Of a stretch of DNA of 64,000 nt, positions 19,369 to 41,210 are shown piece by piece. The position numbers and the translations under genes are program-made. A model generated the notes under the pieces. That model worked only from the letters and a program-made list of their open reading frames with translations, searched no databases and was not told the origin of the DNA. This DNA is from Escherichia coli (GTDB lineage: Bacteria > Pseudomonadota > Gammaproteobacteria > Enterobacterales > Enterobacteriaceae). How positions within the stretch are numbered: the first letter of the stretch is position 1; each line of letters begins with the position of its first letter. The stretch is from assembly GCF_003334305.1 (NCBI RefSeq), contig NZ_QOWS01000001.1; one strand, 5' to 3'.

Positions 19369-19524
19369 GGGAGTTATTCTAGTTGCGAGTGAAGGTTTTG
19401 TTTTGACATTCAGTGCTGTCAAATACTTAAGAATAAGTTATTGATTTTAACCTTGAATTATTATTGCTTGATGTTAGGTGCTTATTTCGCCATTCCGCAA
19501 TAATCTTAAAAAGTTCCCTTGCAT

Positions 19525-27492: not shown

Positions 27493-27981
27493 TTAGCGAA
27501 CTACCGCGTTGTCAATTTTCTCTTCCGCCTTCCAGACGCGGTACTTCACATCTACATTGTCTGGCGTATACACCACGATCGGCAGCTTGCTGTTGTAACG
27601 CAGCATTCCAGCATCGCCCAGATACGCGGTGACAAATTTCTTCTCTTTCTTGCCATCCGGGCAGGCCATCATCGTCGAAACCGGGGAACTGACTTTATCA
27701 AAGACATAATAATCATAGCCCCAGCCTTCCAGCGTTTTGTTTTCCAGCTTCCCGCCGAGACGATGCAAATTGCAATCGACTTCCAGCGTCTGACCGATTA
27801 ACAGTTCTACTTTCAGGGTAGATTCATCTTCTTGCGGGGTTAACTGAATCACCTGACGCTTCATCCCTTTTTCAGCTTGTGGATAAGGCGCGATTTTTTC
27901 CAGTGGCTGGACGCTTTCTGCCGCCCAGGCGGAAGTGGTAGCGAAAGCGGCAAACAATACTGCAGGTAGAATGGTCTTCAT
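27493..27981 (-). CDS. eco: Ecotin, periplasmic serine-protease inhibitor
   Basis: Start taken at [20 protein letters not shown] within ORF 27493-28002, giving 162 aa. Confidence 0.93.
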
Positions 27982-28259
27982 TTTTTTGCTTTCCTTCTTC
28001 ATTTATAGGTTTTCACCGATGATGTCGCTGAAGGTTAACATATTCATCAGATTTATTAATTTGCTTTATGAATAACTTAAAGAACATTCAGACAATTTTA
28101 CCTGCTCTTTTAGTGTTAAATTCTAATGAGAGAGCAAACCAGCAGAAATATCTCTGGTGAATTAATCGCTATATAAATATATTTATAACCATTTGAAATG
28201 TGAGCAAAAGCCCGTTTTTGCCACGCTTCCCGCCACTCTTTTGATCCTGCTACAGGTTT

Positions 28260-28275
28260 TACCCCGATCGGGGTA
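28260..28275. promoter_or_regulatory. Perfect 16-bp palindrome in the napF promoter (NarP/NarL 7-2-7-type site)
   Basis: TACCCCGATCGGGGTA about 115 bp upstream of the napF start; matches the heptamer-pair arrangement I recall for NarP/NarL. Confidence 0.6.
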
Positions 28276-28388
28276 TGCATCTTTGACACATCCTTTAATA
28301 TCTTAGCGGCTATAAAAATGGCTTATTAATTATGCGGTTTATTTGGTCGCTCTCAATTTTCAGAGCGCGTTAATGATGGAAGGTCAAT

Positions 28389-28883
28389 GTGAAGATTGAT
28401 GCATCCCGTCGGGGCATACTCACTGGTCGCTGGCGCAAAGCCAGTAACGGTATCCGTCCGCCCTGGTCCGGTGATGAATCTCATTTTCTGACCCATTGCA
28501 CCCGCTGCGACGCCTGTATTAATGCTTGTGAAAACAACATTCTGCAACGCGGCGCGGGCGGCTATCCGAGCGTTAATTTCAAAAATAACGAGTGCAGCTT
28601 CTGTTACGACTGCGCGCAGGCTTGCCCCGAATCGCTATTTTCTCCGCGCCACACCAGGGCCTGGGATTTGCAGTTCACCATTGGGGACGCGTGCCTGGCG
28701 TATCAGTCTGTTGAATGCCGCCGCTGTCAGGATAGCTGTGAGCCAATGGCAATTATCTTTCGCCCGACGCTCTCCGGGATCTACCAGCCGCAACTTAATA
28801 GCCAACTTTGCAACGGATGTGGAGCATGTGCAGCCAGCTGTCCGGTATCAGCCATAACTGCGGAGTATCTCCATGCACACTAA
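28389..28883 (+). CDS. napF: NapF ferredoxin-type protein
   Basis: 164-aa ORF with GTG start; several CxxCxxCxxxCP clusters. Confidence 0.93.
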   Translation: MKIDASRRGILTGRWRKASNGIRPPWSGDESHFLTHCTRCDACINACENNILQRGAGGYPSVNFKNNECSFCYDCAQACPESLFSPRHTRAWDLQFTIGDACLAYQSVECRRCQDSCEPMAIIFRPTLSGIYQPQLNSQLCNGCGACAASCPVSAITAEYLHAH

Positions 28884-40528: not shown

Positions 40529-40565
40529 AAAGAGGCCCGATGGTGATGCCATCGGGCTATTTTTA
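40524..40565. terminator. Bidirectional rho-independent terminator between convergent ccmH and narP
   Basis: A-tract, GCCCGATGG-TGATG-CCATCGGGC hairpin, then T-tract; T-tract overlaps the narP stop codon. Confidence 0.8.
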
Positions 40566-41210
40566 TTGTGCCCCGCGTTGTTGCAGGAACAGAATGGTGG
40601 CTGCCACGCGTGAGCGGACATTGAGTTTGCGCAGCAGATTGCGAATATGTACTTTTACTGTCTGCTCTGAAATATTCAACACCGAGGCAATCTGTTTATT
40701 TGACAGCCCCTGTGCCAGCTCGTGCAGAACATCCAGCTCGCGCTCCGTCAGCACGCTGAAGGGATCTTCTTCCGCGCCAAACATTTCACGTTCACGTAAG
40801 TACTGATTGACGCGTTCGCTAAAGACTTTGCTGCCTTTCGCTCCAGCACGAATTGCTTCCAGCAATACTTCCGGGTCGCTGTCTTTCAACAGATAACCGT
40901 CTGCGCCTGCGTCTATCAGTGCAAAGACATCGCTGGAGGCATCTGATACGGTCAGGATAATAATTTGCGCGGTAACGCCATCCCTGCGCAAGGCATTGAG
41001 GGTATCCAGGCCACTCATACCTTTCATATTGAGATCCAGCAAGATCACGTCGATATCCAGTCTATTCGCCAGATCGATCGCGCTCGCGCCGTCGCCCGCT
41101 TCGGCGACCACTTCAAAGCCAGGATCAAGCTCCAGTAACTGACGAACACCGCGTCGCATAAGTGGATGATCATCCACAATCATCACCTGAAAAGGCGTTG
41201 CTTCAGGCAT
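40563..41210 (-). CDS. narP: Nitrate/nitrite response regulator NarP
   Basis: Start taken at MPEATPFQVMIVDDHPLMRRG within ORF 40563-41240, giving 215 aa; receiver plus LuxR-type helix-turn-helix. Confidence 0.93.
   Translation of the reverse strand: MPEATPFQVMIVDDHPLMRRGVRQLLELDPGFEVVAEAGDGASAIDLANRLDIDVILLDLNMKGMSGLDTLNALRRDGVTAQIIILTVSDASSDVFALIDAGADGYLLKDSDPEVLLEAIRAGAKGSKVFSERVNQYLREREMFGAEEDPFSVLTERELDVLHELAQGLSNKQIASVLNISEQTVKVHIRNLLRKLNVRSRVAATILFLQQRGAQ

What the first reader, a model, noticed from the sequence alone, without database searches (positions are those of the whole stretch)
28003..28388. napF control region with a perfect 16-bp palindrome
The AT-rich 386-bp region between divergent eco and napF contains TACCCCGATCGGGGTA (28260-28275), a perfect inverted heptamer pair with 2-bp spacer, as expected for NarP/NarL control of the nap-ccm operon. 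I could not confidently place the Fnr site; TTGATCCTGCTACA at 28241-28254 is only a half-site match.
Basis: partly seen in the sequence, partly recalled or inferred. Interest (0 to 1): 0.3.

Follow-up and report, generated by a model that had tools for sequence, protein, structure and literature searches.

The report
Known NarP/NarL site of napF promoter
The 16-bp palindrome is the already well-characterised docking site for the nitrate/nitrite response regulators NarP and NarL in the E. coli napF (periplasmic nitrate reductase) promoter, and the "half-site" 20 bp upstream is the curated oxygen-sensor (Fnr) site, so the finding is correct but ordinary.

Summary
Confirmed and already known. TACCCCGATCGGGGTA sits at 28260-28275, between divergent eco and napF, in a 36% GC spacer. 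The window differs from E. coli K-12 MG1655 at one intergenic base, outside every site, so K-12 data transfer directly. A RegulonDB-derived table lists exactly these two heptamers as the napF NarL 7-2-7 pair. A NarL matrix built from curated sites without napF ranks the palindrome first in 64 kb by its weaker arm. An FNR matrix ranks the true Fnr box only 920th and prefers a non-conserved decoy at 28343. The published FNR ChIP peak falls about 6-9 bp from the centre of the upstream box. In 13 Enterobacterales napF regions, TTGAT and the TACC..GGG core are invariant and always 20.0 bp apart. The right half of the Fnr box drifts. Also present: a second perfect palindrome (28172-28187), a ModE-operator look-alike; a conserved Crp-like half-site; and overlapping -10 hexamers. 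The annotated yojO ORF over the site is not conserved. Mechanism: Fnr at -64.5 and phospho-NarP at -44.5 co-activate, and NarL competes for the same site. Interest is low.

The parts
28260..28275 (.). NarP/NarL 7-2-7 binding site, TACCCCG-AT-CGGGGTA. The dyad centre is at 28267.5, which is -44.5 relative to promoter P1.
   Evidence: Exact match. Identical to the curated napF NarL heptamer pair. Leave-napF-out NarL matrix: rank 1 of 63,985 by weaker arm, rank 2 by sum. TACC.C.A..GGG..A is invariant in 13 Enterobacterales. Unchanged in the most divergent E. coli core variant.
28241..28254 (.). Fnr site, TTGAT-CCTG-CTACA. The centre is at 28247.5, which is -64.5. The left half is consensus and the right half is degenerate.
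   Evidence: Curated napF FNR site. The FNR ChIP peak centre 2301669 (U00096.2) maps to about window 28239-28242. TTGAT is invariant and always 20.0 bp from the NarP dyad in 13 species.
28296..28304 (+). Two overlapping -10 hexamers offset by 3 bp: TAATAT (28296-28301) and TATCTT (28299-28304). No usable -35 hexamer is present.
   Evidence: Read from the sequence. AATATCTTA is invariant from Escherichia to Salmonella and Leclercia. The consensus promoter scan finds no + strand sigma-70 promoter, as expected for an activator-dependent promoter. Assigning the hexamers to P2 and P1 is an inference from the published 'dual overlapping promoters' title and my recollection of that paper.
28309..28312 (+). 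Inferred transcription starts: P1 at 28312 (MG1655 2303574) and P2 about 3 nt upstream.
   Evidence: Derived by placing the palindrome centre at -44.5, from the -40 to -49 range in PMC4549865. Coordinates mapped. Not measured here.
28167..28190 (.). ModE-operator-like element CGCTATAT-N7-TTTATAACC. It contains the perfect 16-bp palindrome TATAAATATATTTATA (28172-28187). The centre is at 28178.5, which is -133.5.
   Evidence: Second perfect palindrome in the spacer. Matches TATAT-N7-TAYAT with 1 mismatch. Aligns arm for arm with the MG1655 modA operator CGTTATAT-N7-TACATAACG. Citrobacter has CGTTATAT-N7-TATATAAC. ModE is listed as a napF regulator.
28196..28217 (.). Crp-like site AAATGTGA-GCAAAA-GCCCGTTT. 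The left half is good and the right half is poor. The centre is near -105.5.
   Evidence: The block TTGAAATGTGAGCAAAAGC is conserved in Escherichia and Citrobacter. A Crp site upstream of the Fnr and NarP sites is reported by Stewart et al. 2009, which is cited but was not readable here. The placement is my inference.
28389..28883 (+). napF, the first gene of napFDAGHBC-ccmABCDEFGH and the regulated target.
   Evidence: ORF. RefSeq annotation. NapF homologs.
27493..27981 (-). eco (ecotin), the divergent upstream neighbour.
   Evidence: ORF and RefSeq annotation.
28116..28280 (-). Annotated small ORF yojO, which overlaps the ModE, Crp, Fnr and NarP sites. Probably not a real gene.
   Evidence: RefSeq annotation. 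The frame carries in-frame stop codons in another Escherichia lineage, E. albertii, Citrobacter, Leclercia and Salmonella, while the underlying regulatory motifs persist.
28343..28356 (.). Decoy Fnr-like match TTGGTCGCTCTCAA in the napF 5' UTR.
   Evidence: Best FNR-matrix hit in the spacer (8.53 bits; 2 mismatches). Not conserved even within Escherichia. About 108 bp from the ChIP peak.

Best explanation
This is the control region of the E. coli napFDAGHBC-ccm operon, essentially identical to that of K-12. The palindrome is the single high-affinity 7-2-7 site for the nitrate/nitrite response regulators. A phospho-NarP dimer bound there is centred at -44.5 and takes the place of a -35 element. 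It activates transcription together with an Fnr dimer centred at -64.5 on TTGATCCTGCTACA, which is active only without oxygen. Phospho-NarL binds the same palindrome but is a poor activator, so it competes with NarP. The result is highest expression in anaerobiosis with nitrite or low nitrate, and reduced expression at high nitrate. ModE-molybdate (about -133.5) and probably Crp (about -105.5) add upstream inputs. Shown here: the sequence, its identity to the curated sites, matrix rank, fixed spacing and conservation. Taken from the literature: binding and regulation. Inferred: the exact start sites, the -10 assignment and the Crp placement.
For: The sequence is at the stated coordinates. The locus is eco/napF/napD/napA and is present in 5422 of 5426 complete E. 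coli genomes. There is only 1 intergenic mismatch to MG1655, at 28163, outside all sites. The curated NarL pair and the curated FNR site for b2208 are these very sequences. The napF 7-2-7 site is placed at -40 to -49. [quoted passage not shown] The FNR ChIP peak lies over TTGAT. The NarL matrix ranks the site top in the window. Heptamer positions 1-6 are identical on both arms to the engineered ideal NarL site TACCCCTAAAGGGGTA. TTGAT and the NarP core are invariant at 20.0 bp spacing in 13 Enterobacterales. Across 7 genera, identity is 1.00 for TTGAT and 0.76-0.84 for the heptamers, against 0.27-0.37 in the flanks. Two Citrobacter genomes carry a symmetric double change (G7A plus C10T) that keeps the palindrome perfect. 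The 76-bp core is identical in 4959 of 5422 E. coli genomes. The most divergent variant keeps both TTGAT and the palindrome.
Against: Nothing contradicts it. Caveats follow. The primary footprinting and in vitro transcription papers (Darwin 1998, Stewart 2003 and 2009, McNicholas 2002) are not in the held library. The -64.5, -133.5 and P1/P2 details therefore rest on my recollection plus internal consistency. Each heptamer departs from TACYYMT at position 7 (G, not T). The degenerate consensus is not significant window-wide. The Fnr box scores below the 10th percentile of curated FNR sites. The ChIP coordinate conversion assumes an offset of 1975-1978 bp between MG1655 versions.
Confidence: 0.95

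Rival explanations
1. Fnr acts from the better-scoring box TTGGTCGCTCTCAA (28343-28356) in the 5' UTR, and the TTGAT at 28241 is incidental.
For: It is the top FNR-matrix hit in the spacer: 8.53 bits against 2.15, rank 42 against 920, with only 2 mismatches to the consensus.
Against: It is not conserved even in other Escherichia (TTGGTCGCTCTCTG) and is absent in Citrobacter. It lies about 108 bp from the FNR ChIP peak, whereas 28247.5 lies within about 9 bp of it. It sits at about +32 to +45, a position suited to repression rather than activation. The curated site is the upstream one. TTGAT at 28241 is invariant in 13 species at fixed spacing.
Confidence: 0.03
2. The palindrome is conserved because it encodes the N-terminus of the small protein YojO (MHTPIGV...), or acts as an RNA hairpin in a yojO or antisense transcript, rather than as a protein-binding DNA site.
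For: RefSeq annotates yojO on the - strand over 28116-28280, so its first codons cover the palindrome.
Against: The yojO frame has in-frame stops by codon 16-22 in six of the eight relatives examined and by codon 45 in Salmonella and one Citrobacter, while the palindrome persists. The pattern of conservation (TAC/GTA ends, symmetric compensatory change, variable position 7) follows the NarL heptamer, not codon positions. No functional study of yojO was found. The same motif pair is conserved in genera with no eco or yojO neighbour: Pluralibacter, Pectobacterium and Buttiauxella.
Confidence: 0.01
3. It is a chance palindrome in AT-rich intergenic DNA with no function.
For: Eight perfect 7-N2-7 inverted repeats occur in the window against about 4.7 expected, so such repeats are not rare.
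Against: It is GC-rich inside a 36% GC spacer. It matches the NarL heptamer on both arms. It is conserved across genera. It is the curated experimental site.
Confidence: 0.005

Closest known systems
E. coli K-12 napF (aeg-46.5) promoter: Fnr at -64.5 and NarP/NarL 7-2-7 at -44.5 (Darwin & Stewart 1995; Darwin et al. 1998; Stewart et al. 2003)
   Same: It is the same locus. The whole eco-napF spacer differs from MG1655 at one base outside the sites. Both curated site sequences are identical to the window.
   Different: Nothing of substance. This is another E. coli strain.
Other NarP/NarL 7-2-7 sites (nirB, nrfA, fdnG, yeaR) and the engineered ideal site TACCCCTAAAGGGGTA
   Same: Inverted TACYYMT heptamers with a 2-bp spacer. 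Positions 1-6 on both arms are identical to the ideal site.
   Different: Position 7 is G rather than T. Here the site sits at -44.5 and NarP activates while NarL antagonises. At nirB and fdnG, as I recall, both regulators activate from further upstream.
Class I Fnr-dependent promoters with consensus TTGAT-N4-ATCAA
   Same: The left half-site is a perfect TTGAT. The centre at -64.5 is on the same helical face as a -61.5-type class I position.
   Different: The right half matches 2 of 5 positions. The matrix score is below the 10th percentile of curated sites. ChIP occupancy was called by only 2 of 4 peak callers when nitrate was absent.
ModE operator of modABC (CGTTATAT-N7-TACATAACG)
   Same: The outer arms CGyTATAT and ATAAC and the 7-bp spacing are shared.
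   Different: At modA, ModE represses and its site overlaps the promoter. At napF the site lies far upstream (about -133.5) and ModE is reported to activate.

Membership tests
NarL/NarP 7-2-7 response-regulator binding site | Two heptamers resembling TACYYMT in inverted orientation, separated by exactly 2 bp | tested here: met
   TACCCCG-AT-CGGGGTA matches 6 of 7 on each arm. Leave-napF-out heptamer matrix gives 5.99 bits per arm, rank 1 by weaker arm and rank 2 of 63,985 by sum.
NarL/NarP 7-2-7 response-regulator binding site | Bound by NarP and NarL proteins | not testable with these tools
   Curated as the napF NarL 7-2-7' pair in RegulonDB/CoryneRegNet-derived tables. Reviews state that NarP-P activates and NarL-P competes. 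The footprint papers were not readable.
NarL/NarP 7-2-7 response-regulator binding site | Located in the promoter of a nitrate/nitrite-regulated operon at a position compatible with activation | tested here: met
   The site lies 121.5 bp upstream of the napF GTG. It is placed at -40 to -49 relative to the start. -10-like hexamers lie 21-29 bp downstream of the site.
NarL/NarP 7-2-7 response-regulator binding site | Conserved in orthologous promoters | tested here: met
   Present upstream of napF in 13 of 13 Enterobacterales examined, with an invariant TACC.C.A..GGG..A core.
Fnr (CRP/FNR-family) binding site | Inverted repeat TTGAT-N4-ATCAA | tested here: inconclusive
   The left half is perfect and the right half, CTACA, matches 2 of 5. 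The matrix score is 2.15 bits, rank 920 in the window. By sequence alone it would not be called.
Fnr (CRP/FNR-family) binding site | Occupied by Fnr in vivo and required for anaerobic activation | not testable with these tools
   The published FNR ChIP-seq/ChIP-chip peak maps to about 28239-28242. It is the curated napF FNR site.
Fnr (CRP/FNR-family) binding site | Fixed, helically phased position relative to the co-activator and promoter | tested here: met
   The centre-to-centre distance to the NarP dyad is 20.0 bp in all 13 Enterobacterales.
ModE operator | TATAT-N7-TAYAT core with CG..../....AAC outer arms, as at modA | tested here: met
   One mismatch to the core. The arms match the MG1655 modA operator. 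The Citrobacter orthologs fit better still. ModE binding itself was not testable. ModE is listed as a napF regulator.

The most novel reading that the evidence does not exclude
Across Enterobacterales the napF Fnr box is kept as one invariant TTGAT half-site, exactly 20 bp from the NarP dyad, while its other half drifts freely. This suggests selection for a deliberately weak, one-armed Fnr site. On that reading Fnr occupancy depends on NarP bound next to it, giving a conserved oxygen-AND-nitrate gate, rather than a decayed consensus site. The Fnr/NarP synergy itself is known. The evolutionary constancy of the half-site design may not have been described.
Probability: 0.3. Interest if true: 0.25.

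Novelty: already known. Interest (0 to 1): 0.07.

Why it matters
It matters little as a discovery, because this is one of the textbook examples of combinatorial control by Fnr, NarP and NarL. The check is useful as a calibration. The NarP/NarL site can be found from sequence alone. The true Fnr site cannot: a standard matrix scan picks a non-conserved decoy 100 bp away. Only spacing, phylogenetic footprinting and ChIP data identify the weak real site. The overlapping yojO annotation also looks like an artefact of conserved regulatory DNA.

Tried and rejected
(1) I tried to read the primary papers (PMC107417, PMC193976, PMC2632075, PMC135098, PMC1251606). None is held.

(2) Full-text searches for '44.5' and '64.5' with napF returned only unrelated papers.

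(3) No supplement was held for the PnapF -85..+19 fusion primers, which would have anchored the start site.

(4) The repeat finder with a minimum length of 10 did not report the 7-2-7 palindrome, because its arms are too short. It reported only an unrelated 13-nt repeat at 28035-28080.

(5) The sigma-70 consensus scan found no + strand promoter. That fits activator dependence but does not help place the promoter.

(6) The terminator-like hairpin at 28334-28350 and the 5' UTR fold were examined. The fold is no better than shuffled sequence (z = -0.26), so I rejected it as a structured element.

(7) The FNR consensus and matrix scans misplace the site.

(8) The other high 7-2-7 scores (19424, 19448, 45147, 41286) were examined. 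They are AT-rich rcsD-ompC spacer or coding sequence and do not compete.

(9) Pasteurella napF does not share the 20-bp architecture, so the footprint claim is limited to Enterobacterales.

(10) I did not attempt to place the IscR and BasR sites, which are listed as napF regulators.

Full report
**Observation.** The sequence TACCCCGATCGGGGTA is at window 28260-28275. It is unique in the 64-kb window even when three mismatches are allowed. It is a perfect 16-bp palindrome made of two inverted heptamers around an AT spacer. TTGATCCTGCTACA is at 28241-28254. The spacer is AT-rich, at 35.8% GC against 51.8% for the window. The flanking genes are eco (- strand) and napF (+ strand, GTG at 28389), followed by napD and napA. 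One correction: RefSeq starts eco at window 27981, not at the upstream ATG at 28002. The true spacer is therefore 27982-28388.

**Identity of the locus.** A 601-bp query across the spacer matches 5422 of 5426 complete E. coli genomes, always on the chromosome. Against K-12 MG1655, the eco-to-napF stretch has five mismatches. Only one is intergenic (28163 T/C), and it lies outside every site discussed here. The mapping is MG1655 coordinate = 2331886 minus window position. K-12 experimental data therefore apply directly.

**What the curated record says.** The primary papers are not in the held library, but open sources suffice.
- The MotifAdjuster supplement (PMC2718512) reproduces RegulonDB/CoryneRegNet sites. 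For b2208 (napF) it lists NarL sites GGTTTTACCCCGATCGG and CCGATCGGGGTATGCAT, flagged as a 7-2-7' pair.
- In its FNR set it lists CTCTTTTGATCCTGCTACAGGTTT. These are exactly window 28260-28275 and 28241-28254.
- PMC4549865 places the napF 7-2-7 site at -40 to -49, so its centre is at -44.5.
- PMC2718512 states that NarP binds only 7-2-7 sites and names napF among the four classical examples.
- PMC9262595 summarises the regulation: induction by FNR and NarP-P, with NarL-P preventing NarP binding. It uses a -85..+19 fusion as a NarP reporter.
- PMC8139620 and the FNR ChIP study add ModE, IscR and BasR as regulators.

**Promoter geometry.** Placing the palindrome centre (28267.5) at -44.5 puts P1 at 28312 (MG1655 2303574). 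The centre of the TTGAT box (28247.5) then falls at -64.5. The centre of CGCTATATAAATATATTTATAACC (28167-28190) falls at -133.5. These are the positions I recall from Darwin et al. 1998 and McNicholas & Gunsalus 2002, and I mark them as recollection. The internal consistency is reassuring. Two -10-like hexamers, TAATAT (28296-28301) and TATCTT (28299-28304), overlap with a 3-bp offset. This fits the published 'dual overlapping promoters' (title cited). No -35 hexamer is recognisable, and the consensus scan finds no + strand promoter. That is expected for an activator-dependent promoter.

I built matrices from the curated sets with napF's own sites left out: 70 NarL heptamers and 48 FNR 14-mers.
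- The 7-2-7 composite score of 28260 is 11.98 bits. That is rank 2 of 63,985 window positions, 0.01 bit behind a site inside a coding ORF. It is rank 1 when both arms must be good.
- The FNR matrix gives the curated box only 2.15 bits, rank 920. This is below the 10th percentile of curated sites.
- The FNR matrix prefers TTGGTCGCTCTCAA at 28343-28356, in the 5' UTR (8.53 bits, rank 42).
- This agrees with the published PatSer ln(p) of -5.37 for the napF/yojO FNR peak, among the weakest in that table.

**Why the upstream box is nevertheless the real Fnr site.**
- The FNR ChIP peak centre is 2301669 in U00096.2. With an offset of 1975-1978 bp to the current MG1655 version, this maps to window 28239-28242. 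That is 6-9 bp from 28247.5 and about 108 bp from the decoy.
- The decoy is not conserved even in other Escherichia lineages.
- Phylogenetic footprinting also supports the upstream box, as described next.

**Phylogenetic footprint.** I collected napF upstream regions from:
- a second Escherichia lineage
- E. albertii
- four Citrobacter
- Leclercia
- Salmonella
- Trabulsiella
- Buttiauxella
- Pluralibacter
- Pectobacterium

In all 13 Enterobacterales rows, the window included, the best 7-2-7 match is accompanied by a TTGAT whose 14-mer centre lies exactly 20.0 bp upstream of the dyad. An ungapped alignment anchored on the dyad shows TTGAT and TTTACC.C.A..GGG..AT invariant.

Taking one sequence per genus (7 genera), mean pairwise identity is:
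- 1.00 for TTGAT
- 0.84 and 0.76 for the two heptamers
- 0.46 for the right half of the Fnr box
- 0.27-0.37 for the upstream flanks

Two Citrobacter genomes carry TACCCCAATTGGGGTA, a symmetric double substitution that keeps the palindrome perfect. Within E. coli, the 76-bp core 28236-28311 is identical in 4959 of 5422 genomes. The most divergent variant keeps TTGAT and the palindrome but changes the Fnr spacer and right half. Pasteurella has a different layout, so the claim is limited to Enterobacterales.

**Other elements in the spacer.**
- A second perfect 16-bp palindrome, TATAAATATATTTATA (28172-28187), lies 88 bp upstream. Only five perfect 16-bp palindromes occur in the window (1.3 expected), and two of them are in this spacer. 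Its wider context aligns arm for arm with the MG1655 modA operator. Citrobacter orthologs fit the TATAT-N7-TAYAT core perfectly. This is the ModE site.
- The conserved block AAATGTGAGCAAAAGC (28196-28211) has a good TGTGA half. It is my candidate for the Crp site reported by Stewart et al. 2009. That paper is cited but was not readable, so the placement is inferred.

**Mechanism.**
- Shown in the literature: under anaerobiosis Fnr binds at -64.5. Nitrite or low nitrate, via NarQ, produces phospho-NarP, which binds the palindrome at -44.5 and co-activates P1. High nitrate, via NarX, produces phospho-NarL, which occupies the same palindrome and antagonises NarP. ModE couples expression to molybdate.
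- Shown here: sequence identity to the curated sites, matrix rank, fixed spacing and selective conservation.
- Inferred: the exact starts, the assignment of the -10 hexamers to P1 and P2, and the Crp position.

**Rivals.** I considered three: Fnr acting at the decoy, the palindrome serving yojO, and chance. All are rejected. The yojO frame over the sites carries in-frame stops in every relative examined, while the DNA motifs persist. No functional work on yojO was found. The 5' UTR shows no significant structure.

**Verdict.** The feature is already known and interest is low. The only mildly new angle is that the one-armed Fnr box at a fixed 20-bp distance is conserved across Enterobacterales. 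That points to a selected weak site rather than a decayed one.

Noticed in passing
window 28172-28187 (context 28167-28190): A second perfect 16-bp palindrome, TATAAATATATTTATA, lies in the same spacer. Its flanks CGCTATAT...ATAACC match the modA ModE operator arm for arm.
   Followed up: yes
window 28116-28280 (- strand): The RefSeq-annotated small ORF yojO overlaps the ModE, Crp, Fnr and NarP sites. Its frame has in-frame stops in another Escherichia lineage, E. albertii, Citrobacter, Leclercia and Salmonella. It is probably a spurious ORF kept open in E. coli by conserved regulatory DNA. No functional literature was found.
   Followed up: partly
window 28343-28356: TTGGTCGCTCTCAA in the napF 5' UTR scores far better on an FNR matrix (8.53 bits) than the real site (2.15 bits). 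It is not conserved and lies about 108 bp from the ChIP peak. It is a decoy for matrix scans.
   Followed up: yes
window 28196-28217: The block AAATGTGAGCAAAAGC is conserved in Escherichia and Citrobacter and has a good CRP TGTGA half-site, centred about -105.5. It is probably the Crp site reported for napF catabolite control.
   Followed up: partly
window 40563-41240 (- strand): narP, the gene for the regulator that binds the palindrome, lies in the same window about 12 kb downstream, just past ccmH. It is convergent with the nap-ccm operon.
   Followed up: partly
window 19424-19463: Two 7-2-7-like matches, TACTTAAGAATAAGTT and TAACCTTGAATTATTA, lie 24 bp apart in the AT-rich rcsD-ompC/micF spacer. 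They are probably an effect of AT-rich composition. The FNR ChIP study also lists a peak at ompC/micF.
   Followed up: no
whole window: Matches to TTGATNNNNATCAA with 2 mismatches or fewer are over-represented: 48 observed against 30.0 +/- 6.0 in shuffles, and none of 100 shuffles reaches 48. The cause is unknown and may be oligonucleotide or codon bias.
   Followed up: no
window 27981 vs 28002: The longest eco ORF starts at 28002 (169 aa), but RefSeq starts ecotin at 27981 (162 aa, MKTILPAV...).
   Followed up: yes
L026, L027, L028, L009 (upstream of napF): The divergent neighbour of napF varies between genera. It is nrfA in Pluralibacter and a NarQ/NarX-type sensor kinase in Pectobacterium and Pasteurella. 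In Leclercia a tRNA-like 3' end lies upstream, and the ModE and Crp blocks are absent there.
   Followed up: no
L028 582-634 (Pasteurella multocida): Here a TTGATCTAGCACAA box lies about 38 bp upstream of TACTCAA-T-TTGGGTA, an inverted heptamer pair with an apparent 1-bp rather than 2-bp spacer. This differs from the enterobacterial 20-bp design.
   Followed up: no
window 28035-28047 / 28068-28080: An imperfect inverted repeat, TTAACATATTCAT / ATGAATAACTTAA (85% complementary, 20 nt apart), lies on the eco-proximal side of the spacer. Its function is unknown.
   Followed up: no
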